From IMG/VR virus record IMGVR_UViG_3300045988_177154, positions 32,001 through 96,000 of that record: a stretch of 64,000 bases of DNA; one strand, given 5' to 3'. The notes beneath the pieces were generated by a model. That model had not been told where the DNA came from and searched no databases. It saw only the letters and a program-made list of their open reading frames with translations. Below are positions 52,320-64,000 of the stretch, piece after piece (position 1 is the stretch's first letter; each line of letters opens with the position of its first letter). The translations under genes and the position numbers were made by a program. The DNA comes from a virus.

Positions 52320-52348
52320 TTGACAAACGCTAAATCACTTGTTATAAT
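52320..52348 (+). promoter_or_regulatory. sigma-A type promoter driving the orphan omega-RNA-like element and gene 52537
   Basis: TTGACA-17-TATAAT. Confidence 0.8.
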
Positions 52349-52352
52349 GAAA

Positions 52353-52491
52353 TTAAAGGAAATAATCAAATTGTGTTATTTCTAATAGATGTACCATATT
52401 TAATCATTAAATTTGGAGTCTATCCTCTATTTGAGGTATTACCTTGCAACTCACTTATTTATTACAATAAGTTACAGGTGTAAGCAACAAT
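52353..52491 (+). ncRNA. orphan omega-RNA-like element (copy of the 3' segment of TnpB-like gene 39171-40667)
   Basis: 139 nt alignable to 39310-39163 (minus strand) with compensatory hairpin substitutions and in-frame stops. Begins about 5 nt after the -10 box of promoter 52320-52348. Confidence 0.6.
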
Positions 52492-52536
52492 GTAAATATA
52501 AAATAAAAAATAAAATTTTGAAAGGAGCTATTTAAA

Positions 52537-53070
52537 ATGGCTACAAATATTTATGAAAACGTTACGGAGATTGTTTTCCAAAACAATCGCTTCCCACTGA
52601 ATGGTGCTTCTGTTGATGATGTACTTGCATTGCTAAACGTCCCAGACAATGCAGAATTGGCAGTAGAAGGTACTGCTCTTCTAATTACAGAAAAATCTGG
52701 TACAAAGGGTGCTGACCCTGACCCAGAATTGATTGCTAAGTTGGCTGCTACTTTTGGTGGCGAAGCAATCAAAGGTGCTAGTGTGAAACTCCACCGTGCT
52801 TCAAATGGTAAATGGGTACCAAAAATCCCTGGTTTCACTCTTGATGAAGTTGCTTACTTGCTTGAAAAAGATGTAGAACTTTCAGAAGAAATGACTGATG
52901 AACAAGTTGAAATTGCTCGTCAAGCTCTTGAACAACGTGATGCTGAAATTGAAGCACAACGTGTTGCAGAAAAACAAGCTTTAGTAACAGAAGCTCTTGA
53001 AGGCTCAGGTCTTAACTTCACTTATGACCAATTGGTCTGTTTGCAAAAAGCTCTTGATGCTATTCGCTAA
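52537..53070 (+). CDS. Ubl-like N-terminal module fused to an acidic helical C-terminal region
   Basis: EIVFQNNRFPLNGASVDDVLALLNVPDNAELAVEGTALLITEKSG aligns with the 54-aa ORF. Visibly more G/C-rich codons than neighbouring genes. Confidence 0.6.
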   Translation: MATNIYENVTEIVFQNNRFPLNGASVDDVLALLNVPDNAELAVEGTALLITEKSGTKGADPDPELIAKLAATFGGEAIKGASVKLHRASNGKWVPKIPGFTLDEVAYLLEKDVELSEEMTDEQVEIARQALEQRDAEIEAQRVAEKQALVTEALEGSGLNFTYDQLVCLQKALDAIR

Positions 53071-53098
53071 AAACAACACACTATTTAACAAAAAAAGA

Positions 53099-53130
53099 AA
53101 ATCACACTTCAGTGTGATTTTTTTATTTTT
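53099..53130 (+). terminator. intrinsic terminator after gene 52537-53070
   Basis: AAATCACAC-TTCA-GTGTGATTT plus a T run. Confidence 0.8.
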
Positions 53131-53145
53131 TAATACACTTTTCGG

Positions 53146-53174
53146 TTGACAAATTCATAATTGTTTGATAGAAT
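53146..53174 (+). promoter_or_regulatory. sigma-A type promoter
   Basis: TTGACA-17-TAGAAT. Confidence 0.7.
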
Positions 53175-53204
53175 ATATAATATAATAAGAAAGGGGAAAA
53201 TACA

Positions 53205-53942
53205 ATGCCTATTTTAGAACTAGACGCTAGTCAATATGTGAAGCAAGGTCGAATTTTTAAGAAATTTGATTCTAATTTGCTTGATTCATATATGGACGGT
53301 AGACAAAATAACTATAATATTAACTTAGCAGAATTAGATGACCAAATTTCTGATGGTATCGTTTATGCTGACCGAAATGGTAAAATGATTTACAAATTTG
53401 GAGCTAAGAAAATTATTCAAACAGCAATCACAAATGGATTGGAAATTAGTGGGTTGTCTAAGGATTTAGAAATGAAGCATTATTCATTTTGGGTACCTGA
53501 TTTATATTTTGTTTCATTTTACAGTTTTAATCCAAATGAAGATTTATATATTGCATACCGTAGCAAAGATGAAGAATTTATTTGCTTGACAAATATTTGG
53601 CCTGACGGTTCGAGCTATGCAGAGGATTATTTCCCTAATGGTGACCGATTAACTCTTAAAAGACTTTGTAAGGGTAGCATGATGTCAGATGTTAGTTCGA
53701 GCGATTATGACGCATGGAGAAATAATGCTGTCACTCGTGCTAGTCAATTTGTAAATAAATTTGTAAGTGCTCGAGGAAATTCTGACTTAGATTTTGTTGG
53801 TAGTGCATTGCGAAGCAAAGTACCGAGTCATAATATTAAAAAATGTGCAGTATTTCTTGGCACAATTACAAAAGAACAAGAAAATGTAAACACTTATGAA
53901 GAGTTCATGGAATGGACTAAAAATACAAAATGGTTTAAATAA
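53205..53942 (+). CDS. hypothetical protein, tentative E2/UBC-like candidate
   Basis: FNPNEDLYIAYRSKDEEFICLTNIW recalls the E2 HPN...ICL arrangement. Position is between the Ubl and JAB genes. Motif-level guess only. Confidence 0.3.
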   Translation: MPILELDASQYVKQGRIFKKFDSNLLDSYMDGRQNNYNINLAELDDQISDGIVYADRNGKMIYKFGAKKIIQTAITNGLEISGLSKDLEMKHYSFWVPDLYFVSFYSFNPNEDLYIAYRSKDEEFICLTNIWPDGSSYAEDYFPNGDRLTLKRLCKGSMMSDVSSSDYDAWRNNAVTRASQFVNKFVSARGNSDLDFVGSALRSKVPSHNIKKCAVFLGTITKEQENVNTYEEFMEWTKNTKWFK

Positions 53943-53965
53943 AAAGAAAGTGAGAAATAAATAAA

Positions 53966-55144
53966 ATGAAATTAGTAGAACTTTACTCATCAGAACAATT
54001 TAAAAAAGAATCTGACCGTGGTATGATTAAAACAGTTATTGTCGGAAAAGACGGTACGTATGAAGAACAAAATTCTTGGTTAGGTACTTCTCTGAAAAAA
54101 GTACATGATTATGGAGTTATTACATTCCCCGAAGTTACTGAATTTGTAAAAGTAAAAAATGTAAATGTTACAAAAATTCCAGCAATTGCCATTAAAACAG
54201 TAATGAAATGGTACAAAGACATTACTGATAAGAATGGAGAAGAAGCACAAGTAAACTTTTATCTTAAAAGTCGTAAATTGGGCGGAACTCCACAAGATGG
54301 TATTTACAAATTAACTTATACTGAAGAAGATGAATTTGGAATTGAAACAGAAAAGACAGTTAAATTAGAAGATATTCCGGGGCTTAACTTTTGGAATGAT
54401 GATGTATTCTCATATACACCAAAACAAGAAAATTCACACGGCCAAACAAGTACAGATGACCCAATCTATACAGCTCTAAATCAACAATATGGAATGTTTT
54501 TGGAAACACATTCACATAACAGCATGCCAGCATTTTGCTCAAGTACTGACTATGCAAATTCTCAAAATGACGCTGTTCAATTAGTATTTGGGAAATTCAA
54601 AGGCTCTCATATTGAAATGTATAACTGGATTACAGTAAGTCAAAAGCTTAAGGAAGGTTTTGATGCTCATGTATTGGAAAAATTTGTAGAATTTCCAACT
54701 TATTCTGTAAATACAGCAGAAAAGAAATTGAACTTTGATTTTTCTGTACTTTCAGGTGTTGATGAAACAATTCTTGAAGAATGGGATAAACAAGTTATCA
54801 AACCTAAACCTATTGTACGTTCATTTGGATATGGTAGTTATGGTGGCGGATATGCTAACACAATTTGGTCTACTTCAGATACAACTCGTTCACCTTGGAC
54901 TCCAAAACATGGTTCTACTGTAACATCATACAAATCAACTCCAGCTAAGATTGAAGAAGGTTCTGAAAAAGCAATTATTGATTTACTAGAAATGTATGGC
55001 AATGATGCAATTAGTGTGATTGAAAATCTAGTAAGTATTTACAAATCAGCTATTTCAAATGCTACTTATGTAAGCAAGACTGAAACAGAAATTCAAGATG
55101 AAATTGTCACTCTTGTATCGGATGCAATTGATGAACTTTTCTAA
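53966..55144 (+). CDS. JAMM/JAB (MPN+) metallopeptidase domain protein
   Basis: Exact JAMM core H-S-H-NSMPAFC-S-ST-D (HxHx7Sx2D) with an upstream Glu (GEEAQV). Additional ~200-aa C-terminal region. Confidence 0.75.
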   Translation: MKLVELYSSEQFKKESDRGMIKTVIVGKDGTYEEQNSWLGTSLKKVHDYGVITFPEVTEFVKVKNVNVTKIPAIAIKTVMKWYKDITDKNGEEAQVNFYLKSRKLGGTPQDGIYKLTYTEEDEFGIETEKTVKLEDIPGLNFWNDDVFSYTPKQENSHGQTSTDDPIYTALNQQYGMFLETHSHNSMPAFCSSTDYANSQNDAVQLVFGKFKGSHIEMYNWITVSQKLKEGFDAHVLEKFVEFPTYSVNTAEKKLNFDFSVLSGVDETILEEWDKQVIKPKPIVRSFGYGSYGGGYANTIWSTSDTTRSPWTPKHGSTVTSYKSTPAKIEEGSEKAIIDLLEMYGNDAISVIENLVSIYKSAISNATYVSKTETEIQDEIVTLVSDAIDELF

Positions 55145-55160
55145 ACGCTAAATTTTGAGA

Positions 55161-55190
55161 AAAGTTATCCAAAATTGGATAACTTTTTCT
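55161..55190 (+). terminator. intrinsic terminator after the JAB gene
   Basis: AAGTTATCCAA-loop-TTGGATAACTT plus a T run. Confidence 0.8.
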
Positions 55191-55246
55191 TGATTTTTTA
55201 AGCATTATATTATATAATAGAATTACCGAAAGAAAGGTAGGACAAT

Positions 55247-55726
55247 ATGAAAAAAAGATTAGAAGTAAAAATCATTGATACTGCAAGACGATTAAATAGA
55301 AGAGTCAAATCAGAATATACTTTATTAAATCTAAATGAAATCTTTACAGGTACAGAAGAATTTGACTATGTTGCAGCTGCAAAATTAGGTGTTCTTGATA
55401 AATATAAAACTATTCTTGAAACTGGTGTAATTGCTGATGTTGATAAAAGTTGGAGTTCAAATAGTGTCTTAGGAAAGATTGTTGGTAATGATAAAATCGT
55501 TAAATTAGTAAATGCAGAACTTGCTGAATTATTTCCAGCGGACGTATTTGAACAAAGTGAAAATAGCACTTATTTAAAATTTAATCCAAAAAATGCTGAT
55601 AAGATTAGAAAGATTGACATTATCACATGGCTTCGTACTCAACCTAATTTTTATAGAGATGGTTCAACTTATGGATTGTCAACAAAAGTAAACGGAGCAA
55701 CTTATCATACGAAAATTCTATTTTAA
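55247..55726 (+). CDS. hypothetical protein (159 aa)
   Basis: ORF track. Confidence 0.6.
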   Translation: MKKRLEVKIIDTARRLNRRVKSEYTLLNLNEIFTGTEEFDYVAAAKLGVLDKYKTILETGVIADVDKSWSSNSVLGKIVGNDKIVKLVNAELAELFPADVFEQSENSTYLKFNPKNADKIRKIDIITWLRTQPNFYRDGSTYGLSTKVNGATYHTKILF

Positions 55727-55738
55727 GGGGGAAGCAAA

Positions 55739-56221
55739 ATGAATGAATTTCAAAAACATTTATTCAAGTTAAATGAAGTTAAATTTTCTGATTATAACTT
55801 GAATTATATTGACAGTAATAATGAAGATGAAGAAGGTGTGATTGTTGTAATCACAAATGACTTCGAAAAAGCTTTTGCTTTCAAACCTTACAATCGTATT
55901 GCTAATAAAAATGCTTATCTTGTAATTGAAGAAGAAACTGACTTAGAAGCAATTGTAAAACAAATTTTAGGAGAAGATAACTTCTGTAATCTTCCAAATT
56001 TAAGACAATTCCATAATGGGCAACTTTGTCGCTATCTTAAAATTGTAGAATTTTCAAGTTACAATACTGATGCTTTTACTCATCTTAAAACGTATCTAAA
56101 ACATAATTTTGAAGAAACTGAAGATGATGTAAAACATTATGAACTCTTTGACAAGAATATTGTGATTGTTCCAAAAGAATTTTATGACTTAGCAAAAGAA
56201 AAAGTCATGCCAGCTGCATAG
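55739..56221 (+). CDS. hypothetical protein (160 aa)
   Basis: ORF track. Confidence 0.6.
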   Translation: MNEFQKHLFKLNEVKFSDYNLNYIDSNNEDEEGVIVVITNDFEKAFAFKPYNRIANKNAYLVIEEETDLEAIVKQILGEDNFCNLPNLRQFHNGQLCRYLKIVEFSSYNTDAFTHLKTYLKHNFEETEDDVKHYELFDKNIVIVPKEFYDLAKEKVMPAA

Positions 56222-56236
56222 AAAGGGGAGTTAAAT

Positions 56237-56428
56237 ATGTCTTTAAGTGTTTTTTTGATTTCCTTGAACAATGCTTGTCGGGAATTTAATCAACAAAATA
56301 ACATTCAATTAGAAGTTTCAGAAGTAAATATTGATTTTGACTCTGAACGCTTTAAACAATTAGACAGATTGTTTGATTGGAGTACAGAACGAGGAAAGGA
56401 AATGATTCAACGCTTGTATGTTGAATAA
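56237..56428 (+). CDS. hypothetical protein (63 aa)
   Basis: ORF track. GGGGAG RBS. Confidence 0.5.
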   Translation: MSLSVFLISLNNACREFNQQNNIQLEVSEVNIDFDSERFKQLDRLFDWSTERGKEMIQRLYVE

Positions 56429-56436
56429 GGTTAAAT

Positions 56437-57417
56437 ATGGAAAACAAAACAGAATTAGTAAAACTACTTAATCAAATTTCAACGCTTTTAGAAGGTGAAG
56501 AAGAGCGCTTTAAACATTTGCTAGAACAATTGAAAACTGCTATCAATACAAAAAGTATTGCTCGAGAAGCAGAAACATTAGCAATGAACTTGATTGAAGA
56601 ACGTTATGGTAAATTACCAGAGATTACTAAAATTCAGATTGGTAATAATAAACCAAAAGAAATTAAAGGCTTGACTCACTCTTCTTTTAAATCCATTTTG
56701 ACTTTGCTTGCAAATGGAGAAAATGTTTTGCTTAATGGTCCGTCAGGTACTGGTAAAAACGTGCTTGGTAATCAAATTGCTGAAGCATTAGGATTGGAAT
56801 TTTACTGTACTCCAGCTATTCGACAAGAATATAAATTGAGTGGCTTTATTGATGCAAACGGAAACTTTGTTGAAACTCCATTCTACAAAGCTTGGACAAA
56901 TGGCGGTGTTTATCTATTTGATGAAATGGATGCTTCAGATGCTACCGTTATTCTTAATATTAACTCTGCTCTAGCAAATGGTTATTATGAATTTCCTATC
57001 GGATTGAAAAAGAAACATAAAGATTTCTATATTCTAGGTGCAGGCAATACTTTAGGAAATGGTGGCGACCGTATCTATACTGCTCGTGAAGAATTAGATG
57101 CTTCTACAATTGACCGATTTGCTGTAGTACCATTTGGATATGATGAAAAATTAGAGCGAGAACTTGCTGGAAATGAAAAGATTTATGAATTTATTATCGC
57201 AGTTCGAAAAGCAATTGAAGAAACTGGACTTCGCTATGTTGTATCTATGCGAGCGACAAAAAGTTTAGCACAATTGTATGGCAAAATGGATATTCAAGAA
57301 CTTGTTAAATATGTTGTATGTAGAAATATGCGAACAGCAGACATTAAAACAATTCTTTCACGTTGTAAATGCCCAGTAGATAATCCATTCTATATTGCTC
57401 TTAAAAATATTGATTAA
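56437..57417 (+). CDS. MoxR/CobS-type (AAA_5) AAA+ ATPase
   Basis: Walker A LLNGPSGTGKN, Walker B VYLFDEMD, and the sensor/arginine region TIDRF. Confidence 0.7.
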   Translation: MENKTELVKLLNQISTLLEGEEERFKHLLEQLKTAINTKSIAREAETLAMNLIEERYGKLPEITKIQIGNNKPKEIKGLTHSSFKSILTLLANGENVLLNGPSGTGKNVLGNQIAEALGLEFYCTPAIRQEYKLSGFIDANGNFVETPFYKAWTNGGVYLFDEMDASDATVILNINSALANGYYEFPIGLKKKHKDFYILGAGNTLGNGGDRIYTAREELDASTIDRFAVVPFGYDEKLERELAGNEKIYEFIIAVRKAIEETGLRYVVSMRATKSLAQLYGKMDIQELVKYVVCRNMRTADIKTILSRCKCPVDNPFYIALKNID

Positions 57418-57420
57418 CTA

Positions 57421-57447
57421 AAAAGAGATTTTTATAATCTCTTTTTC
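57421..57447 (+). terminator. intrinsic terminator after the AAA+ gene
   Basis: AAAAGAGATT-TTTAT-AATCTCTTTT. Confidence 0.75.
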
Positions 57448-57448
57448 A

Positions 57449-57560
57449 GTTTAAGCAGCTTTAAGAAGAATTTCTAATAAGACATAGAAATTATCATTCA
57501 TCTATTAAAACTGTCTTAGCTGCTGAGTAACAGTCGCTAATTATCATTTAAATTATTAAC
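57449..57560 (+). repeat. second intergenic repeat subfamily, copy 2
   Basis: TTTAAGCAG...AAAACTGTCTTAGCTGCTGAGTAACAGTCGCTAATTATC resembles 29561-29690. Confidence 0.5.
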
Positions 57561-57640
57561 TATTACTTAAAGATTATTCTATAACTCACTCTTCTTTTTT
57601 ATAGGCTTTATTCCAACGAGCTTTGAAAAAGCGAGGTGGG

Positions 57641-57696
57641 TTATCTATTTAGTTATTTATTTAGTTGTTTATTAGTTATTTATAGTTATTAGCTAA
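57641..57696. repeat. AT-rich tandem repeats (~11-nt period, TAGTTATTTAT-like)
   Basis: TTATCTATTT-AGTTATTTATT-TAGTTGTTTAT-TAGTTATTTAT-AGTTATTAGC read directly. Confidence 0.7.
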
Positions 57697-57778
57697 AAAA
57701 GCGCTGTTTTGCAAAGCGCTTTAGCTGTTGTTACTCAACTGTTTAGAGCATCTGTAAAATGGCGTAATGATAAAAAAC

Positions 57779-58030
57779 AGTATTTTACCGGTGATTATCA
57801 GTATTTTACCGGTTTTTTTGAGTATTTTTGGTCATTTTTTGAGTATTTTACCGGTTTTTTTGAGTATTTTTGGGCCGATTTTAGTATTTCATTACTGAGT
57901 ATTTTACCGGATTTTTAATTGCTTTGTTTTAGTTTTGAATGATTTCACTGAGTATTTTTGGTCTGTTTTTGAATTTTATATATGAGTATTTTTAGGCTTT
58001 TTCAAAATGCTTGATGAGTATTTTACCCTT
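57779..58030 (+). repeat. iteron-like array: 10 direct copies of AGTATTTT(A/T)(C/G)(C/G)
   Basis: Copies start at 57779, 57800, 57821, 57842, 57863, 57883, 57898, 57951, 57985 and 58017. Two alternating variants occur: AGTATTTTACCGG and AGTATTTTTGG(T/G)C. Confidence 0.8.
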
Positions 58031-58040
58031 GATTTATGAT

Positions 58041-58069
58041 TTGACTTATGGGAAAGTTTATAATATAAT
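58041..58069 (+). promoter_or_regulatory. sigma-A type promoter
   Basis: TTGACT-17-TATAAT. Confidence 0.7.
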
Positions 58070-58103
58070 AAAAATAAATAAAAAATGAAAGTAATGAGAA
58101 ACT

Positions 58104-59147
58104 ATGAAAGACGTTATTGAAACAGTAAATACTAAAATCAAAATTTATAGTAAAGAAGAATTTGAAAATGTAGCAAAAGGTTTAAGATTGAGCAATCGTA
58201 ATAATCAATCTGAAATGGCTTCGCCTGAATTTGCAGGTACTGAATCTTTAGCAGAAGCAGAAAAATTACGAAGCGATGGGGATATGGATAGTTATAGACA
58301 AATCCTATATTTTGTTAATAAATTTATTTCTTATACAAAGTATAATAAAAAGATTTCAAAAAATAAAGAAGATGTAGTAGGATTTTCACCTAATGTTTCA
58401 GCGACACTTATGGGTGTTCCTAAAAATATGTTTAATCGTGAAGAACGTAGACTTCCTATGAAAGAGATTTCTATTGCAATCTCGCCTACATTTAGTGCAA
58501 AATATACCACACAAGAAATTATTACATTCGGAACTGTAATGATTAGTTTGATTGACAAATTAGAAAATGAAAATATTAAAGTTAATCTTTATGTATTGTT
58601 TAATATGGGTGTTGACTCAGAAGTCATTAAAGTAAAACATAAAAAAGAACGACATTATTACTCTCCTATCACACAAGCAAAAGCAAGTGTTTATGACATT
58701 GGAAGATTGTTTAAATTAACAGATAAGAAGATTGCTAGATACAAAGATATAGTTAAAACTTATTATGAAACTTTCAAACCAACGAAAGAAGAAGATTTTA
58801 ATACAGAGGGATTTCTTTATCAATTAAAAGCAGCTTCTGACCCATTGAATACATTTGATTGTGCTTATTATATTGTAAACCCATCATTCTTACGCAGACA
58901 TTGCTTGAAAATTCTTGAAACAGACCCATTCTTTACTGATGTTACGTTTGATAATTATGGAGTAGCTTCTCTTAAAAGTGCAGCCATGGCTGAACAAGCT
59001 ATTAAGAAAAAATATAAAGATGTAGCATTCTTTTCTGTTTGGAATAGCAAATTCACTGACCCAGAGAAAATTGGTGATTACATTGAAGCTGCTTACGCTC
59101 GACTCAATAAAGAATTTCCCGACATTTTCAAGAAAAAACAAAAATAA
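58104..59147 (+). CDS. hypothetical protein (347 aa)
   Basis: ORF track. Behind promoter 58041-58069. Confidence 0.6.
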   Translation: MKDVIETVNTKIKIYSKEEFENVAKGLRLSNRNNQSEMASPEFAGTESLAEAEKLRSDGDMDSYRQILYFVNKFISYTKYNKKISKNKEDVVGFSPNVSATLMGVPKNMFNREERRLPMKEISIAISPTFSAKYTTQEIITFGTVMISLIDKLENENIKVNLYVLFNMGVDSEVIKVKHKKERHYYSPITQAKASVYDIGRLFKLTDKKIARYKDIVKTYYETFKPTKEEDFNTEGFLYQLKAASDPLNTFDCAYYIVNPSFLRRHCLKILETDPFFTDVTFDNYGVASLKSAAMAEQAIKKKYKDVAFFSVWNSKFTDPEKIGDYIEAAYARLNKEFPDIFKKKQK

Positions 59148-59151
59148 CTAT

Positions 59152-59262
59152 AAGACGCTAAAACTGTTTCTAAGCTGTTTTACTGCAAAGTCGATACATT
59201 TATCGAAAAACAGTTTTGACTGTTTTTGCGTTTCACTAGTGACGATATAACAGGTATCAAAA
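59152..59262 (+). repeat. dispersed intergenic repeat, copy G
   Basis: CTAAGCTGTTTTACTGCAAAGTCGATACATTTATCGAAAAACAGTTTTGACTGTTTTTGCGTTTCACTAGTGACGATATAACAGGTATCAAAAC. Confidence 0.8.
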
Positions 59263-59295
59263 CAAATACTACATAAGATGAAAAGGAGAAAAATT

Positions 59296-59856
59296 ATGGC
59301 TAGATATTACATAACAACTGAAAAAGAATTTATTAAAGAAACTGACGCTCAATCAAGAGAACTAATTATTACACCTAATCAATTGCTTTGGAAAGATACT
59401 TCATTAGTAAGTTATAAAATCGAACATATGGAAGATTATAATAAGTTAGTTGAAGTTAAAGAAAATTATTTCTATTTCTTAGTGGCGAGAGAATTAGCTC
59501 GTAACGTTTACACAATGAAACAATTCTTAATGATTGATGAATTAGCTACTAGAGTAAATGATTTAGAAACAAAAACTATCGCTTATTTAAATTCTATGTT
59601 AGATGATACTAATTTAAAATACTCTGAATTAGAATTAGTATTTAATAAACGAATTATGGATTGTTTAATGAGTTTGACTCCACCATCTCATGGAGATTAT
59701 TTATATTTTATCGGATTGACTAAAAATGATGAAAAAGCTCGTGAAATTATGATTAACAAACTAGAATTAGCTTTGGAATACTCATTCATCAATAATAACA
59801 CTTTAGGAGAAGTGGAATTATGGAATGAAGCTTTAAGAACTCTTTATTATGAATAA
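59296..59856 (+). CDS. hypothetical protein (186 aa)
   Basis: Start moved to MARYYITTEKEF (AAAGGAG RBS). Confidence 0.55.
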   Translation: MARYYITTEKEFIKETDAQSRELIITPNQLLWKDTSLVSYKIEHMEDYNKLVEVKENYFYFLVARELARNVYTMKQFLMIDELATRVNDLETKTIAYLNSMLDDTNLKYSELELVFNKRIMDCLMSLTPPSHGDYLYFIGLTKNDEKAREIMINKLELALEYSFINNNTLGEVELWNEALRTLYYE

Positions 59857-60193
59857 GCCAATAACATTAGCAACTCTAAAGTCTTTTAAAAAATCATTAG
59901 CTATAACTTATAAATATGCTTATCAAGATTTACCAATGATTTATAGACGATTGCTTGAAAAAGGACATTATATAAATATTTACAAAGCAGAATTAACTGA
60001 AGAAGAATTATCTGTTATTCTTTATGCAGCTGATAACTTAATGGCTCTATATGGAAATATTGCTCATCAATTACTCTATTATTCATTGATGAAATACTTA
60101 GATTTTTTAATTGATAAATATTCAGGCACAAATTTAGATATAAACAACAATAAAGATGAAATACTAAAAGAATGGAAACGCATAGGAGAATAA
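59849..60193 (+). CDS. hypothetical protein (114 aa)
   Basis: ORF track. 8-nt overlap with the upstream gene. Confidence 0.55.
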   Translation: MNKPITLATLKSFKKSLAITYKYAYQDLPMIYRRLLEKGHYINIYKAELTEEELSVILYAADNLMALYGNIAHQLLYYSLMKYLDFLIDKYSGTNLDINNNKDEILKEWKRIGE

Positions 60194-60194
60194 A

Positions 60195-60413
60195 ATGCTA
60201 GAAATTTTTAAATATAACGCTATCAGAGATATGTTTAAGCTTAATATGACAGCTAAAGAACTAGAAACAATCTTTAAGGATTACAAAAAGAATAAAGCTA
60301 TTTCACCACAATACAAAAAACAAGCTGATGAAATTGCTAAAGTTATTTCTAACAAATTAGAGTTAAATCACTCAGCTGAAGAATGGCTAAATGCTTTGGA
60401 TAAAATGTTTTAA
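60195..60413 (+). CDS. hypothetical protein (72 aa)
   Basis: ORF track. Confidence 0.55.
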   Translation: MLEIFKYNAIRDMFKLNMTAKELETIFKDYKKNKAISPQYKKQADEIAKVISNKLELNHSAEEWLNALDKMF

Positions 60414-60442
60414 GAAAGACTTTAATTAGTCTTTCTTTTTTG
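60412..60442 (+). terminator. intrinsic terminator
   Basis: AAGAAAGACT-TTAATT-AGTCTTTCTT plus a T run. Confidence 0.8.
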
Positions 60443-60471
60443 TTGACAAAATAAAAAATGCTTGATATAAT
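60443..60471 (+). promoter_or_regulatory. sigma-A type promoter
   Basis: TTGACA-17-TATAAT. Confidence 0.8.
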
Positions 60472-60502
60472 TAAAATACAAAAATGAAATGAGGTAATTA
60501 TT

Positions 60503-60997
60503 ATGAGTAACAACAAACAACTACAAACCGCTTTAGAAATTGCAGTAATGGCTCATAAAGGTGTAACACGCCGAAATACTGACCCTTATATTTTCCATGT
60601 GCTACGTGTAGCTAATAATGCTAAATATATTCGTACAAAAACTCAAAAAGCTGCAGGTATTCTTCATGATGTTATTGAAGATACTCCACTTAACGCTGAA
60701 TTTTTACGAGAAAAAGGAATTGATGATGATGTGTTGAATATTCTATCTTTCCTAACTCATGATAAAGAAAAAACAACTTATTCTGATTACATTGATAATA
60801 TTTGTAATAACGTTGATGCTATGCTGGTCAAATTGTCTGATTTAACTGACAACCTAGACCAAGGCACACTTTCTGTTATTACAGACCGTGACCGAGAGCG
60901 TTTTATTGTTTATGAAAATGCTCGTACTAAAATTATGAGTACTCTTGCTCGTGACTACCCAGAAACATTTAAAGAAATTATGAAAACAGGTAATTAA
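60503..60997 (+). CDS. RelA/SpoT-type HD-domain hydrolase (small alarmone hydrolase-like), second copy
   Basis: ALEIAVMAHKGVTRR...PYIFHVLRV and GILHDVIEDT. Paralogous in fold to 27663-28205. Confidence 0.7.
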   Translation: MSNNKQLQTALEIAVMAHKGVTRRNTDPYIFHVLRVANNAKYIRTKTQKAAGILHDVIEDTPLNAEFLREKGIDDDVLNILSFLTHDKEKTTYSDYIDNICNNVDAMLVKLSDLTDNLDQGTLSVITDRDRERFIVYENARTKIMSTLARDYPETFKEIMKTGN

Positions 60998-61015
60998 GAA
61001 AGGAGTTATAAAATC

Positions 61016-61270
61016 ATGGATAAGCAAACAAAAATTAAAGTAACTAATAAATGGTATGGCGATTTAGCCACAATTTACTCTATTAGAAACTTGGAAGATG
61101 AAACACTTGAACCTGTATTGTTATTTTATAGTAATGGAAGTGCTCCAAACTTCATTCGTAACCAAGAAATGACTATTGAAGAAGTTGAAAATACTCGTCC
61201 TTATAAAATGATTTTATTTAACTCATGGGACGACATTCCAAATGACATGGCTATGGCACTCGGATTTTAA
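61016..61270 (+). CDS. hypothetical protein (84 aa)
   Basis: ORF track. Confidence 0.55.
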   Translation: MDKQTKIKVTNKWYGDLATIYSIRNLEDETLEPVLLFYSNGSAPNFIRNQEMTIEEVENTRPYKMILFNSWDDIPNDMAMALGF

Positions 61271-61297
61271 GAAATAAGTATTAGAAAGATAAAATAA

Positions 61298-62083
61298 ATG
61301 ACTAAACCAAAATATTTTAATGATGAACGATCAGCTAAAGCTCAAGCACATATTCAAGAAATGAGCAAGAAATACTCAGAAGATATTCTTGAAATTGTTT
61401 ATGCTTCTACTATCTATATGGAGCCATTGGATAATAAAGTTAATAAAGCTACAACTAATATTATTGTGGATAACATTGATAGTGTAAGTGCTATTTATAA
61501 ACATGGTAATTGGAAAACAGCTGTGCTTAATTTTGCTTCATTTTATAACCCAGGTGGTGGTTTTGCGTGGGGAACTATGGCACAAGAAGAAGCTTTATGT
61601 AGTGAGTCTGTTCTATACAATGTTTTATCTAATAATAAATTTAAGAGTTATTATGCAAATAATGGTAAGGAAGTTTTTGATTACAAATTTGCTGACAGAG
61701 GAGTTTACTCTCCTAGTGTAATTTTTGAGCGACCTTTTTGGTCAAATCTTCGTGGCGCTAATGTTAAAGTAATCAATACTTGTGATGTAATTACTGTAGC
61801 TGCCCCTAATCGCAGACGCCAAACAAAAACTTCTGCTGAAGAAAATTACAATGCTCTTGCTAAACGGATTGATTTTGTTTTAAGTATTGCTCAAGAACAA
61901 AAAGTAAAAACACTTATCTTAGGAGCATTTGGTTGTGGAGTGTTTGCTCAAAAACCTGAAGAAGTAGCAACTTTATTTAAAGAAGCTTTGAAACATTATC
62001 ATTTTGATAAAGTTGTTTTTGCTATTATGCCAGACAAAGAGAATACTAATTTTAAAGTATTTTCTGAAATTCTAAATGGATAA
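61298..62083 (+). CDS. microbial PARG-like macrodomain protein (TIGR02452/DUF2263 type)
   Basis: VLNFASFYNPGGGF..G..AQEEALC.ES.LY signature, plus LILGAFGCGVF near the C-terminus. Confidence 0.7.
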   Translation: MTKPKYFNDERSAKAQAHIQEMSKKYSEDILEIVYASTIYMEPLDNKVNKATTNIIVDNIDSVSAIYKHGNWKTAVLNFASFYNPGGGFAWGTMAQEEALCSESVLYNVLSNNKFKSYYANNGKEVFDYKFADRGVYSPSVIFERPFWSNLRGANVKVINTCDVITVAAPNRRRQTKTSAEENYNALAKRIDFVLSIAQEQKVKTLILGAFGCGVFAQKPEEVATLFKEALKHYHFDKVVFAIMPDKENTNFKVFSEILNG

Positions 62084-62191: not shown

Positions 62192-62219
62192 TTGACTTAT
62201 AACTCAAACCTGATATAAT
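62192..62219 (+). promoter_or_regulatory. sigma-A type promoter P1 upstream of the tRNA cluster
   Basis: TTGACT-16-TATAAT. Confidence 0.65.
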
Positions 62220-62283
62220 TATTTCTGTTGTTGATATTTAAACAACGTTTTCAGAAAAAGATGAAAAAATTTCAAAAAACCTA

Positions 62284-62312
62284 TTGACACATGACTTTAA
62301 ATAGGTTATAAT
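62284..62312 (+). promoter_or_regulatory. sigma-A type promoter P2 upstream of the tRNA cluster
   Basis: TTGACA-17-TATAAT, preceded by TTTCAAAAAACCTA. Confidence 0.75.
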
Positions 62313-62422
62313 AGAATTATAAATGATTTGATTTATCTTTTGGAGAGATGTAGAATAATAAATCTATACCTTTGCAAAAGATGAATCATTTCAAAAAATA
62401 TAAAAATTTTTTCAAAAACCTA

Positions 62423-62451
62423 TTGACACATAATTTTTGATATGATATAAT
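62423..62451 (+). promoter_or_regulatory. sigma-A type promoter P3 directly upstream of tRNA-Leu
   Basis: TTGACA-17-TATAAT, preceded by TTTCAAAAACCTA. Confidence 0.8.
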
Positions 62452-62478
62452 CATTTATGTACTTTGAAATTTAAATAT

Positions 62479-62563
62479 GCTCGGCTGGTGAAATTTGGCA
62501 AACACAGGGGACTTAAAATCCCCCGACCATTTGGTCTTGCGGGTTCGAGTCCCGCGCTGAGCA
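62479..62563 (+). tRNA. tRNA-Leu (anticodon TAA), type II with long variable arm
   Basis: GCTCGGC/GCTGAGC acceptor stem (one G-T pair). Anticodon arm GGGGA-CTTAAAA-TCCCC. Variable arm GACC-ATTT-GGTC. T arm GCGGG-TTCGAGT-CCCGC. No encoded CCA. Confidence 0.85.
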
Positions 62564-62740
62564 TGATGTGGTGTCTAACAGCCACAAGTCCTCAATTGTT
62601 AGGTTAACCGAAAGGCTAAAATAAATTCAGCGTAATGAGGCATTATGTTTAAGTAATTTATTTTAGGGTAGCTTCCTACCGTAAAGACAGGTATGGTTTA
62701 AGTTAAAATAAGCGTAATAAATAAACAAAAGACTTATCAC

Positions 62741-62824
62741 TTAAATCGGTGACCGAAGACAATCCGTATAATGGCGGTGACTTGTTCGTTGAAATAGAAA
62801 CGGAAAACATTGGTAGTTGTTCAT
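62741..62824 (-). CDS. possible 27-aa peptide gene in a tRNA spacer
   Basis: TAGGAGGTG RBS 6 nt before the ATG. Translation is MNNYQCFPFLFQRTSHRHYTDCLRSPI. No other support. Confidence 0.25.
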   Translation of the reverse strand: MNNYQCFPFLFQRTSHRHYTDCLRSPI

Positions 62825-62840
62825 GACTGCCACCTCCTAT

Positions 62841-62912
62841 TGACCTGTAGCTCAATGGTAGAGCATCCGGCTGTTAACCGGAAGGTTGTGGGTTCGAGTC
62901 CCACCGGGTCAG
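62841..62912 (+). tRNA. tRNA-Asn (anticodon GTT)
   Basis: TGACCTG/CGGGTCA acceptor stem. D arm GCTC-AATGGTA-GAGC. Anticodon arm TCCGG-CTGTTAA-CCGGA. T arm GTGGG-TTCGAGT-CCCAC. Confidence 0.9.
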
Positions 62913-62923
62913 TTAAATTAACT

Positions 62924-63072
62924 TAATGAGCGATACGTTTTATTCCGAATGACCTCCTTAATAAATTTCGGGATTTATCCTCCTTTCATACAACACACGT
63001 TAAATTTTTACTTTTCTAATGAAAGTAAAGAAAAGTAAAAAATATTCTTTCATTGTTTTGTATCGCTCGTTA
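62924..63072 (+). ncRNA. candidate structured RNA closed by a 13-bp long-range helix, with two CCUCCUU motifs
   Basis: TAATGAGCGATAC (62924-62936) pairs with GTATCGCTCGTTA (63060-63072). Internal hairpins are ATTCCGAA...TTCGGGAT, displaying ACCTCCTTA, and TTTACTTTC-TAAT-GAAAGTAAA. Confidence 0.35.
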
Positions 63073-63081
63073 TTTTAATTT

Positions 63082-63154
63082 GGGCCCATAGCTCAGACGG
63101 CAGAGCAGCGGACTTTTAATCCGTGGGTCGCAGGTTCGATTCCTGCTGGGCCCA
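63082..63154 (+). tRNA. tRNA-Lys (anticodon TTT)
   Basis: GGGCCCA/TGGGCCC acceptor stem. D arm GCTC-AGACGGCA-GAGC. Anticodon arm GCGGA-CTTTTAA-TCCGT. T arm GCAGG-TTCGATT-CCTGC. Confidence 0.9.
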
Positions 63155-63187
63155 TTCCTAGTAAAATAAATATATATTAGGTGACCT

Positions 63188-63246
63188 TAGGCACAAACAG
63201 CAACTACTCACACTTTCTATTTGGCAGAAAAAAGATGAGGTGCCTA
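63188..63246 (+). ncRNA. tRNA-like mini-unit U1 (terminal helix plus anticodon-arm-like hairpin, loop ATTTGGC)
   Basis: TAGGCAC pairs with GTGCCTA. A-A-ACAGCAA motif follows the 5' strand. Hairpin TTTCT-ATTTGGC-AGAAA at 63214-63230. Confidence 0.4.
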
Positions 63247-63264
63247 GTTTATACATTTTATACA

Positions 63265-63339
63265 TAACGACATACAGCAAGAATTTTTTAATAACGAAAC
63301 AGACTCCAAATCTATTTTTTCATTTTTAAAAAGTCGTTA
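63265..63339 (+). ncRNA. tRNA-like mini-unit U2 (loop CTCCAAA)
   Basis: TAACGAC pairs with GTCGTTA. ATACAGCAA motif. Hairpin ACAGA-CTCCAAA-TCTAT (one mismatch) at 63299-63315. Confidence 0.4.
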
Positions 63340-63351
63340 GAGTTATATAAT

Positions 63352-63426
63352 TAGTGACACACAGCAATTCTTCAAACTTAGGAACAAAACGTCATTTTGT
63401 AATTACTAAAATAAGAATCGTCACTA
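63352..63426 (+). ncRNA. tRNA-like mini-unit U3 (loop ACGTCAT)
   Basis: TAGTGAC pairs with GTCACTA. ACACAGCAA motif. Hairpin ACAAA-ACGTCAT-TTTGT at 63384-63400. Confidence 0.4.
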
Positions 63427-63451
63427 GATTAAATAATTTTTTTGAATATAT

Positions 63452-63513
63452 TAGTGGCATACAGCAACTCTACTATGGAATGGACTTTTAATCTGTAACC
63501 CAAGAGGCCACTA
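63452..63513 (+). ncRNA. tRNA-like mini-unit U4 (loop CTTTTAA, identical to the tRNA-Lys anticodon loop)
   Basis: TAGTGGC pairs with GCCACTA. ATACAGCAA motif. Hairpin ATGGA-CTTTTAA-TCTGT at 63480-63496. No D or T arm. 62 nt in total. Confidence 0.4.
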
Positions 63514-63540
63514 GATTATATTAGATTAAATTGAATATGT

Positions 63541-63650
63541 TAGTGGCAATCAGCAATTCTTGTCAAACCAGAGGGTTGTGGGTTCGAGCCCCACCGGTTC
63601 AATTGAACCGTAGCTCAATTGGTAGAGCATCAGGCATAAAACAGCCACTA
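63541..63650 (+). ncRNA. tRNA-like unit U5 enclosing a circularly permuted tRNA-like cloverleaf
   Basis: TAGTGGC pairs with GCCACTA. AATCAGCAA motif. Inside, a tRNA 3' half (CCAGA-GGGTT-GTGGG-TTCGAGC-CCCAC-CGGTTCA) is joined by AT to a 5' half (TGAACCG-TA-GCTC-AATTGGTA-GAGC-A-TCAGG). Confidence 0.45.
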
Positions 63651-63662
63651 GATTTTTATTTT

Positions 63663-63734
63663 GGAACCTTAGCTCATAAGGCAGAGCATTCGGTTGAAGC
63701 CCGTTGCGGATAGGTTCGATTCCTATAGGTTCCG
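63663..63734 (+). tRNA. tRNA-Phe-like (anticodon GAA) with a weak anticodon stem
   Basis: GGAACCT/AGGTTCC acceptor stem. D arm GCTC-ATAAGGCA-GAGC. T arm ATAGG-TTCGATT-CCTAT. Anticodon arm TTCGG-TTGAAGC-CCGTT has only 3 Watson-Crick pairs plus two T-T mismatches. Confidence 0.55.
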
Positions 63735-63969
63735 TTAAATTTATATTTTATATTAAATTGGTTGTCCTTGAGATGTAGGTTCAAATCCTGTACTGGCCGC
63801 CGGGTCGGTTATTTTAATTGGTAAAAATACAAGTAGGCATTAAATGAATTGAGAACTGGCACTTCCTTTCATACAATTTAATATAAGGTGATTCGACCGC
63901 CAATCGAATCATTTCTAGTCTTGGGTGACTACATATAAGAAGCTTCTAACTCAAGACTATTTTTAATAA

Positions 63970-64000
63970 GGGTCTCTAGCGAAGTCTGGTTAAACGCAGC
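63970..64000 (+). tRNA. 5' part of a tRNA (type II-like D loop), cut by window end
   Basis: GGGTCTC-TA-GCG-AAGTCTGGTTAAA-CGC is a pattern typical of Ser/Leu/Tyr-type tRNAs. Only 31 nt are visible. Confidence 0.35.

What the first reader, a model, noticed from the sequence alone, without database searches (positions are those of the whole stretch)
63188..63650. Family of five tRNA-sized units with covarying 7-bp terminal helices, a conserved ACAGCAA motif and anticodon-arm-like hairpins, interleaved with the tRNA genes
Seen in sequence: five consecutive units are each closed by a perfect 7-bp helix whose sequence changes with full compensation. U1 is TAGGCAC/GTGCCTA (63188-63246). U2 is TAACGAC/GTCGTTA (63265-63339). 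U3 is TAGTGAC/GTCACTA (63352-63426). U4 is TAGTGGC/GCCACTA (63452-63513). U5 is TAGTGGC/GCCACTA (63541-63650). Directly after the 5' strand all carry A-N-(A/T)-CAGCAA-(C/G/T). U1-U4 each contain one 5-bp stem with a 7-nt loop built like an anticodon arm: TTTCT-ATTTGGC-AGAAA, ACAGA-CTCCAAA-TCTAT, ACAAA-ACGTCAT-TTTGT and ATGGA-CTTTTAA-TCTGT. The loop triplets at the anticodon position would read TTG, CCA, GTC and TTT. The U4 loop is identical to that of the adjacent tRNA-Lys, and CTCCAAA is the canonical tRNA-Trp loop. None has recognisable D or T arms, and lengths are 59-75 nt. As with the bona fide tRNAs here, no CCA is encoded and a G follows the 3' strand. Inference: compensatory changes argue for selection on an RNA helix, so these are not decaying pseudogenes. 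They could be armless mini-tRNAs, decoys or sponges for anticodon nucleases or tRNA-modifying enzymes, processing signals of the tRNA operon, or a new sRNA family.
Basis: partly seen in the sequence, partly recalled or inferred. Interest (0 to 1): 0.85.

Follow-up and report, generated by a model that had tools for sequence, protein, structure and literature searches.

The report
Phage Y-RNA-like RNAs displaying tRNA parts
The five units are real small-RNA genes of a widespread, apparently undescribed phage family that grafts pieces of tRNAs onto a common stem-plus-ACAGCAA "handle" and that elsewhere sits beside a Ro60-like RNA-binding protein gene, which suggests phage versions of Y RNAs that mimic tRNAs, possibly to blunt tRNA-targeting host defences.

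Summary
It is a circularly permuted copy of the neighbouring tRNA-Asn and gives a sub-threshold match to Rfam YrlA, the bacterial Y RNA.

The same handle occurs in tandem arrays beside genes of a Ro60-like protein family (DUF2828/DUF7788, phrog_850). I found it in 69 of 80 metagenomic phage loci and in E. coli phage SUSP1, Bacillus phage Tsamsa and Enterococcus phage VRE9_3, usually within tRNA arrays. Pairing is position-specific and strand-specific. Stem exceptions are G·U and never A·C, so selection acts on RNA.

Payloads are tRNA parts: anticodon-arm mimics (Lys-UUU commonest) or T/acceptor/D modules.

Best reading: these are Y-RNA-like RNAs whose handle binds the Ro60-like protein and whose modules mimic tRNAs. 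An anti-defence role is inferred, not shown.

Caveat: no Ro60-like gene lies within about 61 kb upstream or 19 kb downstream of the array in this phage lineage.

I found no Rfam family or paper describing these RNAs. Verdict: a new variant of a known kind, of high interest.

The parts
63188..63247 (+). U1 (59 nt plus 3' G). Closing stem 63188-63194/63240-63246, motif AA-ACAGCAA 63195-63203, hairpin UUUCU-AUUUGGC-AGAAA 63214-63230 (UUG-type loop).
   Evidence: CM R1 hit of 21.7 bits. Orthologues keep the stem through U·G (L003) and G·U (L005) changes. The stem sequence is identical to that of a unit in Bacillus phage Tsamsa.
63265..63340 (+). U2 (75 nt plus G). Stem 63265-63271/63333-63339, motif AU-ACAGCAA 63272-63280, hairpin ACAGA-CUCCAAA-UCUAU 63299-63315 (Trp-type loop; one C·A mismatch in the stem).
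   Evidence: CM R1 hit of 14.4 bits, fifth in the window. Conserved in L003 and L005, degenerate in L004.
63352..63427 (+). U3 (75 nt plus G). Stem 63352-63358/63420-63426, motif AC-ACAGCAA 63359-63367, hairpin ACAAA-ACGUCAU-UUUGU 63384-63400.
   Evidence: Best CM R1 hit of the window at 22.7 bits. The loop differs between close relatives (ACGUCAU, CUGCUAA, CUUCAAA) while the stem is unchanged.
63452..63514 (+). U4 (62 nt plus G). Stem 63452-63458/63507-63513, motif AU-ACAGCAA 63459-63467, 3-bp outer helix UGG/CCA, and anticodon-arm mimic AUGGA-CUUUUAA-UCUGU 63480-63496 (Lys-UUU).
   Evidence: CM R1 hit of 20.7 bits. The arm is 14/15 identical to that of the adjacent tRNA-Lys. G·U to A-U change in L004 and L005. 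CUUUUAA is the commonest loop family-wide.
63541..63651 (+). U5 (110 nt plus G), a YrlA-like unit. Stem 63541-63547/63644-63650, motif AA-UCAGCAA 63548-63556, anticodon-stem remnant 63568-63572/63630-63634, T arm 63578-63594, acceptor-like hairpin 63595-63601/63604-63610, D arm 63613-63628, 3' A-rich bulge 63635-63643.
   Evidence: Rfam YrlA 42.1 bits, E=1.5e-7, full-length, below the gathering score of 69. 61/72 identical to a circularly permuted copy of tRNA-Asn 62840-62913. Compensatory changes in both the closing stem and the acceptor-like stem in L004. The T arm and acceptor-like stem covary across 19 units from different phages.
62192..62451 (+). Three consensus sigma-70-type promoters upstream of the tRNA/unit array. 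They are the likely transcription starts of a polycistronic precursor.
   Evidence: 12/12, 12/12 and 11/12 matches, and no terminator-like site inside 63188-63650. Co-transcription is inferred.

Best explanation
U1-U5 are genes for small non-coding RNAs of a widespread phage family built like Y RNAs. Each RNA has a constant 'handle' and a variable 'payload'.

The handle is an exactly 7-bp helix formed by the 5' and 3' ends. On its 5' side sits an asymmetric internal loop, NN-ACAGCAA; on its 3' side an A-rich stretch; and an unpaired G follows the helix.

The payload is a piece of a tRNA. U5 carries the T arm, acceptor stem and D arm of a permuted tRNA-Asn without its anticodon loop. U4 carries the anticodon arm of tRNA-Lys(UUU). 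U2 has a Trp-type loop, U1 a UUG-type loop, and U3 a fast-changing loop.

Shown: the family, its RNA-level constraint, its tRNA-derived payloads, and its two-way genomic coupling in other phages to a Ro60-like protein (DUF2828/DUF7788, phrog_850) and to tRNA arrays.

Inferred: the units are co-transcribed with the tRNAs from the strong upstream promoters and cut out of the precursor. The handle is the binding site of the Ro60-like ring protein, as the stem-bulge of Y RNAs is for Ro60. The tRNA-like modules then present tRNA surfaces to tRNA-binding factors such as anticodon nucleases, modification enzymes or exonucleases. Their most likely role is as decoys or tethers that counter tRNA-targeting host defences.
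For: Family and structure.
- The same handle is found in 244 units on the gene strand against 20 on the opposite strand, in 69 of 80 loci fetched only through the Ro60-like protein.
- Anchoring on ACAGCAA alone, the 7-mer 2 nt upstream closes in 184/265 cases. Control 7-mers close in 26 and 21 of 265, and in 0/30 on the minus strand.
- Single exceptions in the stem are 17 G·U against 0 A·C, p=1.5e-5.
- Handle consensus: A-U, G-C, N4, C-G, then NN-ACAGCAA; an A-rich 3' side; a 3' G in 92%.

Membership of the window's units.
- CM R1, built from 45 units of unrelated phages, ranks U3, U1 and U4 first to third and U2 fifth in the window.
- It also hits units in Tsamsa (42.6 bits), VRE9_3 (35.8 and 35.4 bits) and SUSP1 (28.2 bits).

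Reverse association.
- Of 39 loci fetched only by an RNA junction pattern that carry a closing unit, 23 hold a Ro60-like ORF within the short locus, all on the same strand.
- Of the 41 chance matches, only 4 do.

Protein.
- An AlphaFold model (pLDDT 75.9) has Ro60 as its top five PDB matches (E 2e-7 to 3e-6, about 510-620 aligned columns), followed by vWA domains.
- The proteins belong to phrog_850 'RNA-binding protein' and are annotated 'Ro-like RNA binding protein' in mycobacteriophages.

Cultured phages.
- Units lie next to the gene, inside tRNA arrays, in SUSP1, Tsamsa and VRE9_3.

Payloads.
- U5 is a permuted tRNA-Asn (61/72 identical) and U4 matches the tRNA-Lys arm at 14/15.
- YrlA match for U5.
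- T and acceptor-like stems covary across 19 phage units.
- Anticodon-like loops number 34 against 2.9±1.6 in shuffles, with Lys-UUU commonest.

Literature.
- Bacterial Y RNAs have a terminal stem, a 5' motif and a tRNA-like module, and lie near Ro60 (PMC4201824).
- Bas63 gp130 is Ro60-like, lies upstream of tRNA genes and counters the ppl defence; its authors only speculated that some of those 'tRNAs' are Y RNAs (PMC11482910).
Against: - No Ro60-like, DUF2828 or TROVE gene was found in the 64-kb window, in the 8.7 kb beyond it, or in a further 10 kb downstream in three close relatives. This used HMMs of three subfamilies, tblastn, Pfam and hhalign.
- The canonical bacterial Ro60-binding motif GNCGAAN0-1G is absent.
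- The YrlA score is below Rfam's threshold and comes mostly from the tRNA-like part.
- Binding of the handle by the protein, expression and processing of the RNAs, and any decoy activity are all untested.
- Only about a quarter of short units have canonical anticodon-like loops, and 86 of 218 payloads were not classified.
- TM-scores to Ro60 are low (0.35-0.39).
- U2 is degenerate in one relative.
Confidence: 0.6

Rival explanations
1. The same RNA family, but in this phage the RNAs act without a dedicated Ro60-like protein. The exactly 7-bp stem plus an unpaired G imitates an acceptor stem with its discriminator base. Host tRNA-maturation enzymes would then excise and stabilise free tRNA-part decoys or competitors.
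For: No partner gene within about 80 kb of the array. The units lie among tRNA genes behind strong promoters. Stems are always 7 bp, and a 3' G follows in 92% of units. M. smegmatis YrlA is cut by RNase P and receives CCA (PMC4201824).
Against: Elsewhere the family is tightly linked to the protein, on the same strand. Short units lack the 12-bp acceptor/T minihelix that RNase P, RNase Z and the CCA-adding enzyme recognise (established knowledge; not tested here). Most of the 325-kb genome was not seen.
Confidence: 0.2
2. The units are processing or punctuation elements of the tRNA operon. They would be structured spacers that guide RNase cleavage or protect the precursor, with no function as separate RNAs.
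For: They lie between tRNA genes and are probably co-transcribed with them. In arrays the spacers are short and AU-rich (GAUA), which resembles RNase E sites (inference).
Against: Arrays of 7-11 units occur head to tail with no tRNA between them (for example L113, L048, L055). Payloads are specific tRNA parts with covariation. The conserved single-stranded ACAGCAA and the coupling to an RNA-binding protein are not needed for punctuation.
Confidence: 0.07
3. The units are functional armless or minimal tRNAs that are aminoacylated and used in translation.
For: A 7-bp terminal stem plus a discriminator-like G, and anticodon-like loops in U1, U2 and U4.
Against: Not called by ARAGORN or the Rfam tRNA model. 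The same ACAGCAA handle accompanies every 'anticodon' and also payloads with no anticodon loop at all (U5) or with a whole tRNA inside. The U3 loop lacks U33. The phage already encodes 22 tRNAs, including Lys, Trp, Gln and Asp.
Confidence: 0.03
4. The units are decaying remnants of duplicated tRNA genes, or DNA-level inverted repeats such as MITEs, integron attC-like sites or recombination sites.
For: The payloads of U5 and U4 clearly derive from the neighbouring tRNA-Asn and tRNA-Lys genes. U2 is lost in one relative. Unit sizes resemble those of attC sites.
Against: G·U but never A·C exceptions in the stems. Strong strand bias, 265 versus 30 motifs and 244 versus 20 units. The handle is conserved in phages of Proteobacteria, Bacillus and Enterococcus. 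There is no attC GTTRRRY core (visible in the sequence), and no target-site duplications were noticed, though I did not search for them systematically.
Confidence: 0.03
5. The conserved ACAGCAA core plus stem is a small self-cleaving ribozyme or another catalytic motif that releases the units.
For: Tandem units need to be cut apart. The junction CUGAUAAG superficially resembles the hammerhead CUGAUGA box (visible in the sequence).
Against: No ribozyme family is matched in Rfam even at E≤10 or at gathering score in 19 loci. The hammerhead topology is not met: there is no stem II hairpin between the boxes.
Confidence: 0.02

Closest known systems
Bacterial Y RNAs of the YrlA type (Rfam RF02553), partners of Ro60/Rsr (Chen et al. 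2014, PMC4201824)
   Same: A terminal helix formed by the 5' and 3' ends. A conserved single-stranded motif on the 5' side next to that helix. U5 and its class carry a tRNA-like module in the order T arm, acceptor-like hairpin, D arm. Several different RNAs occur per locus. They are encoded on the same strand beside a Ro60-type ring/vWA protein (true of the family, not of this window). They can share an operon with tRNAs.
   Different: The motif is ACAGCAA, not GNCGAAN0-1G. The partner is the very divergent DUF2828/DUF7788 (phrog_850) branch, not a Pfam TROVE protein. Arrays reach 11 or more units with 4-nt spacers. Most units carry only an anticodon-arm-like hairpin or other short payloads instead of the T/D module. 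The Rfam score is below threshold (42 versus 69 bits).
Thermus phage phiLo φRo60 with Yrl1/Yrl2 (PMC12135203)
   Same: A phage-encoded Ro60 homologue with adjacent phage-encoded Y-RNA-like RNAs built as stem, bulge with motif, stem. An anti-defence role has been proposed.
   Different: phiLo uses a canonical Ro60 and a CGAA motif. It has two RNAs and no tRNA-part payloads are described.
Bas63 gp130 (Ro60-like) upstream of tRNA genes, counter of the ppl defence (PhageMaP preprint, PMC11482910)
   Same: The same genomic layout as in SUSP1, a related Ounavirinae phage that I examined: a Ro60-like gene directly upstream of the tRNA array. The authors guessed that some 'tRNA genes' may be Y RNAs.
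   Different: They did not identify any RNA, motif or structure. I did not examine Bas63 itself.
Circularly permuted tRNA genes (red alga Cyanidioschyzon merolae and some archaea; from my own knowledge)
   Same: U5 has the 3' half of a tRNA followed by its 5' half, with the acceptor strands joined by a short loop and the ends closed by a helix.
   Different: U5 has no anticodon loop to restore and no bulge-helix-bulge motif. The closing helix is the shared ACAGCAA handle, so U5 is not a precursor of a working tRNA.
Phage countermeasures to anticodon nucleases: T4 RNA repair, and variant phage tRNAs that evade cleavage (eLife 2023 title seen; otherwise from my own knowledge)
   Same: They concern the same targets; tRNA-Lys(UUU) is a classic anticodon-nuclease substrate and is the commonest loop mimicked here.
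   Different: Those systems repair or replace whole tRNAs. Here isolated anticodon arms are mounted on a protein-binding handle. The decoy function is only inferred.

Membership tests
YrlA / bacterial Y RNA (RF02553) | Reaches Rfam's gathering score (69 bits) | tested here: not met
   U5 scores 42.1 bits, E=1.5e-7, over the full model length. U1-U4 give no match. No unit in 19 related loci reaches the gathering score.
YrlA / bacterial Y RNA (RF02553) | tRNA-like module in the order T arm, acceptor-like stem-loop, D arm | tested here: met
   Met for U5 only, with covariation across 19 units of this class. U1-U4 lack it; the known bacterial YrlB-type Y RNAs also lack a full tRNA-like module.
YrlA / bacterial Y RNA (RF02553) | Helix formed by the 5' and 3' termini | tested here: met
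   Perfect 7-bp stems in all five units. Position-specific closure family-wide.
YrlA / bacterial Y RNA (RF02553) | GNCGAAN0-1G motif near the 5' end (proposed Ro60 contact) | tested here: not met
   The sequence at that position reads NN-(A/U)CAGCAA-N.
YrlA / bacterial Y RNA (RF02553) | Encoded within about 4 kb of a Ro60 (TROVE) gene, on the same strand | tested here: not met
   No TROVE or DUF2828 gene from 61 kb upstream to 19 kb downstream. Other members of the handle family meet this feature with a DUF2828-type Ro60-like gene.
ACAGCAA-handle phage RNAs (family defined here) | 7-bp closing stem, 2-nt spacer, ACAGCAA, A-rich 3' side, unpaired 3' G | tested here: met
   All five units, compared with the consensus. 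U5 has U in place of the first A.
ACAGCAA-handle phage RNAs (family defined here) | Detected by a covariance model trained on members from unrelated phages | tested here: met
   U3, U1 and U4 are the top three hits of the window (E 0.02-0.06) and U2 is fifth. U5 is too long for this short-unit model.
ACAGCAA-handle phage RNAs (family defined here) | Adjacent to a phrog_850 / DUF2828 Ro60-like gene | tested here: not met
   Not present within the roughly 90 kb examined in this lineage. The rest of the 325-kb contig could not be read.
tRNA | Cloverleaf with D, anticodon and T arms recognised by tRNA finders | tested here: not met
   ARAGORN and Rfam RF00005 call only Leu, Asn, Lys and Phe in this stretch.
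Ro60 (for the partner protein family DUF2828/DUF7788) | HEAT-repeat ring (TROVE) followed by a vWA domain with a MIDAS motif | tested here: inconclusive
   The predicted fold has Ro60 as its five best PDB matches over its full length (E about 1e-7), but TM-scores are only 0.35-0.39. A DxSxS motif is conserved. There is no sequence-level match to PDB Ro60 and no Pfam TROVE hit.
Small self-cleaving ribozymes (hammerhead, twister, pistol, hatchet and others) | Match to the family covariance model | tested here: not met
   No such match at E≤10 in 62400-64000.
Integron attC sites / MITEs | Strand-symmetric DNA inverted repeats (attC: RYYYAAC...GTTRRRY cores) | tested here: not met
   The cores are absent from the sequence. 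Exceptions are G·U only, and there is strong strand bias.

The most novel reading that the evidence does not exclude
Phages carry a modular 'tRNA-part display' system. A Ro60-like ring protein binds a universal ACAGCAA handle. The array behind that handle is a fast-evolving panel of anticodon-arm and elbow mimics, each copied from a tRNA that host anticodon nucleases or other tRNA-directed defences attack. The RNP would soak up or redirect those effectors. The rapid loop swapping in U3 between phages whose adjacent PARG-like protein is 88-98% identical (ACGUCAU, CUGCUAA, CUUCAAA) and the dominance of Lys-UUU mimics would be the footprint of that arms race.
Probability: 0.27. Interest if true: 0.92.

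Novelty: new variant of a known kind. Interest (0 to 1): 0.82.

Why it matters
Y RNAs and Ro60 are conserved from bacteria to humans, yet what the RNA modules do is still largely unclear. This family offers hundreds of natural variants in which one protein-binding handle carries recognisable and different tRNA pieces. That makes the question 'what does the Y-RNA module recruit?' directly testable.

The family is present in tractable cultured phages. I saw the units in SUSP1, Tsamsa and VRE9_3. The partner protein occurs in 710 phage records, including Felixounavirus, Listeria, Staphylococcus, Enterococcus and Mycobacterium phages. One member of the protein family has already been reported to counter a defence system.

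The result would also correct annotation. Several units are currently annotated as hypothetical proteins or left blank. It would add a new RNA family to the inventory of phage tRNA regions.

If the decoy reading is right, this is a new type of RNA-based anti-defence.

Tried and rejected
1. Near-identity DNA search of the region in cultured phages found only tRNA-Asn matches.
3. My first junction pattern, CTGATAAAG-N7-ACAGCAAA, was off by one base and returned mostly coding-sequence chance matches. I discarded it and repeated the search correctly.
4. The search for the partner protein in this phage was negative throughout:
   - Pfam on the ten largest ORFs;
   - tblastn with three Ro60-like proteins;
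   - HMMs of three subfamilies against all ORFs of the window, L001 and L003-L005, and against L294-L296;
   - hhalign against four unannotated window proteins;
   - a MIDAS-motif scan;
   - PHROGs on the flanking genes;
   - a walk downstream, which failed once and then covered 10 kb more.
   A second homologue search with the Tsamsa protein did not surface a protein from the 325-kb contig among the best 120.
5. A sequence-profile search of PDB with the DUF2828-like family found nothing. Only the fold comparison showed Ro60.
6. A helicase tblastn meant to place the phage gave no close cultured relative, so the host is unknown.
7. Ribozyme, attC/MITE, pseudogene and armless-tRNA readings were considered and rejected (see the rival explanations).
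8. RNAalifold on the YrlA-like class did not recover the terminal stem, because MAFFT misaligned the 3' ends. The stem rests instead.
Full report
**The observation**

The window's last 1.6 kb is the start of a tRNA array. ARAGORN and Rfam call tRNA-Leu, Asn, Lys and Phe. Each has a perfect 7-bp closing stem (four different stem sequences), then 2 nt, then ACAGCAA (UCAGCAA in U5), and a G after the 3' strand. A scripted search for this arrangement found no comparable GC-containing unit elsewhere on the + strand of the 64-kb window. The anticodon-arm-like hairpins of U1-U4 exist as described and appear in the minimum-free-energy folds.

U5 does contain a canonical T arm, a 7-bp acceptor-like hairpin and a D arm. 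The order is permuted: T arm, then acceptor hairpin, then D arm.

**What U5 is**

A permissive Rfam scan matched U5 over the whole length of the YrlA model, the bacterial Y RNA that binds the Ro60 orthologue Rsr. The score was 42.1 bits, E=1.5e-7, below the curated 69 bits.

The interior of U5 is 61/72 identical to a circularly permuted copy of the tRNA-Asn gene 700 nt upstream. It is cut in the anticodon loop, and the changes in the acceptor stem are compensatory. The hairpin of U4 is 14/15 identical to the anticodon arm of the adjacent tRNA-Lys. The payloads are therefore tRNA parts copied from the phage's own tRNA genes.

**Source and relatives**

The window belongs to a 324,989-bp metagenomic contig, a jumbo-phage-sized genome. 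Its array holds 22 tRNAs and, outside the window, a GOLLD RNA.

Three related IMG/VR contigs of 262-315 kb carry the same five units. They show RNA-type variation:
- U·G and G·U replacements in the U1 stem;
- a double G-C to A-U change in the U5 closing stem;
- compensatory changes in its acceptor-like stem;
- a G·U to A-U change in the U4 arm.

The U3 hairpin keeps its stem, but its loop reads ACGUCAU, CUGCUAA or CUUCAAA in different relatives. U2 is degenerate in one of them.

**Discovery of the wider family**

An exact-pattern scan of viral contigs with the handle found one unrelated 59-kb phage contig. It carries two units directly downstream of a 579-aa protein with weak DUF2828 and DUF7788 matches.

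I fetched 80 loci through that protein alone. They held 244 units on the gene's strand against 20 on the other strand. 69 of the 80 loci had at least one unit, and some had up to 11 in tandem with 4-nt spacers.

Three tests bear on whether this is real structure:
- A test that does not presuppose pairing. ACAGCAA occurs 265 times on the gene strand and 30 times on the opposite strand. The 7-mer two bases upstream finds its complement within 230 nt in 184 of the 265 cases. Control 7-mers 10 or 20 nt further upstream do so in 26 and 21 cases.
- Stems with a single exception show 17 G·U and no A·C (p=1.5e-5). This rules out a DNA-level palindrome.
- The reverse test. Among loci fetched only by an RNA junction pattern, 23 of the 39 with a closing unit contain a Ro60-like ORF inside the short locus, always on the same strand. 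Only 4 of the 41 chance matches do.

**The protein**

An AlphaFold model (pLDDT 75.9) has Ro60 structures as its five best PDB matches over the full length, followed by generic vWA domains. TM-scores are low (0.35-0.39), and neither sequence profiles nor Pfam TROVE detect the relationship.

The family is PHROG 850, 'RNA-binding protein'. tblastn finds it in 710 cultured-phage records. In mycobacteriophages it is annotated 'Ro-like RNA binding protein'.

In E. coli phage SUSP1, Bacillus phage Tsamsa and Enterococcus phage VRE9_3 the gene sits in or next to the tRNA array. Units with the same handle lie beside it, including YrlA-like ones. One Tsamsa unit has the very stem of the window's U1.

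**Independent membership test**

I built a covariance model from 45 short units of the metagenomic arrays and ran it without filters over the window. It ranks U3, U1 and U4 first to third and U2 fifth. It also finds units in Tsamsa, VRE9_3, SUSP1 and the jumbo-phage relatives.

**Payload census**

Among 218 distinct units:
- 22 have T then D motifs, the YrlA-like order;
- 22 have a T loop only;
- 3 enclose a tRNA in normal order;
- about 35 have canonical anticodon-like hairpins;
- 43 have such a hairpin with one mismatch;
- 86 are unclassified.

In short units, canonical Y-U-NNN-R loops on 5-bp stems number 34, against 2.9±1.6 in dinucleotide shuffles. CUUUUAA (Lys-UUU) is the commonest. Across 19 YrlA-like units, RNAalifold recovers the T arm and the adjoining acceptor-like stem, and 8 of 10 pairs show compensatory changes.

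**Interpretation**

The architecture is a terminal helix, a conserved single-stranded motif beside it, a variable module that mimics tRNA, several RNAs per locus, and the same strand as a Ro60-type gene. That is the architecture of bacterial Y RNAs (PMC4201824) and of the phiLo phage Yrl RNAs (PMC12135203). The motif differs (ACAGCAA rather than GNCGAA), the protein branch is much more divergent, the units form tandem arrays, and many payloads are isolated anticodon arms.

I infer that the handle binds the Ro60-like protein and that the modules engage tRNA-binding factors. An anti-defence role is suggested by two things. One is the report that the Ro60-like gp130 of phage Bas63 counters the ppl system; its authors merely guessed that neighbouring 'tRNAs' might be Y RNAs (PMC11482910). 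The other is the predominance of Lys-UUU mimics. None of this has been tested.

**The main weakness for this window**

No Ro60-like gene was found from 61 kb upstream to 19 kb downstream of the array. The remaining roughly 230-250 kb of the genome could not be read. The partner may lie elsewhere in the genome or in the host, or these RNAs may work without it.

**Novelty**

Rfam 15 has no family matching U1-U4, or the units of 19 related loci, at threshold. Five literature searches found no description of these RNAs. Subscription journals were not covered.

I rate the finding a new variant of a known kind (Y RNA/Ro60-type RNPs) and of high interest.

Noticed in passing
L001 17392-17845 (about window-equivalent 68689-69142, outside the window): A GOLLD RNA (Rfam RF02032, 156.3 bits against a gathering score of 150) sits inside the same tRNA array, with an embedded tRNA-like gene whose anticodon loop ARAGORN reads as a 4-nt 'tgag'.
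   Followed up: no
window 63747-63886 (+): A second tRNA-like RNA without the ACAGCAA handle. A roughly 14-bp AU-rich closing helix encloses a T arm, a 7-bp acceptor-like hairpin (ACUGGCC/GGUCGGU) and a D-like arm. The T and acceptor stems covary in the three relatives. Two further hairpins follow at 63887-63911 and 63915-63958. Rfam YrlA does not match it.
   Followed up: partly
window 62914-63080 (+): The Asn-Lys spacer folds far better than shuffles (z=-5.8) into an element closed by a long helix that includes GAGCGAUAC/GUAUCGCUC. It shares the motif CCUUUCAUACAA with the element at 63855-63875, which hints at another repeated RNA family.
   Followed up: partly
window 62565-62839 (+): The 275-nt Leu-Asn spacer (z=-2.25) starts with GGUGUCU-AACAGCCAC, a near-variant of the handle motif, and may close on GACUGCCAC near its 3' end. 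The Leu-Asn gap is only about 80 nt in relative L004, so the element appears to be absent there.
   Followed up: partly
window 63219-63225 and 63304-63310: The U1 loop AUUUGGC can form 5 bp with the U2 loop CUCCAAA, a possible kissing pair. In relative L004, where U2 is degenerate, the U1 loop reads AUUUAGC. UUGG/GGU-type loops recur in other phages without Trp-type partners, so they might instead pair with tRNA-Trp anticodons or with 3' CCA ends.
   Followed up: no
L048 2935-3050; L117 4528-4642; L111 5244-5367: Some units enclose a complete tRNA that reaches Rfam's tRNA threshold. The handle can thus close around whole tRNAs as well as parts of them.
   Followed up: no
L124 6820-6990 (SUSP1 AVU07_agp138); L126 4823-4939 (VRE9_3 CDS0127): Annotated 'hypothetical protein' CDSs in cultured phages overlap ACAGCAA-handle units or tRNA-like genes. 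They are probably mis-annotations.
   Followed up: partly
window 39171-40667 (-): A 498-aa ORF with a Cas12f1-like TNB domain, that is, TnpB-like, inside the phage genome. I did not look for a neighbouring omega RNA.
   Followed up: no
window 51409-62083 (+): The genes just upstream of the array include a ThiF-like E1 (Pfam mark), a CobS-like AAA+ ATPase (phrog_249), a DUF7192 protein, an HD phosphohydrolase and a PARG/macro-domain protein. This mix suggests nucleotide, ADP-ribose or RNA-end metabolism.
   Followed up: partly
L001 14440-15280, 15354-15874, 17048-17392: Long ORF-free stretches inside the tRNA array, beyond the window, have no Rfam match at E≤0.01. They may hold further large structured RNAs.
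   Followed up: no
L053 5922-6281, L103 5817-6159, L057 339-672, L120 5543-5758: Loci that carry the Ro60-like gene and the unit arrays often also carry phage tmRNA genes and group I introns, in addition to tRNAs.
   Followed up: no
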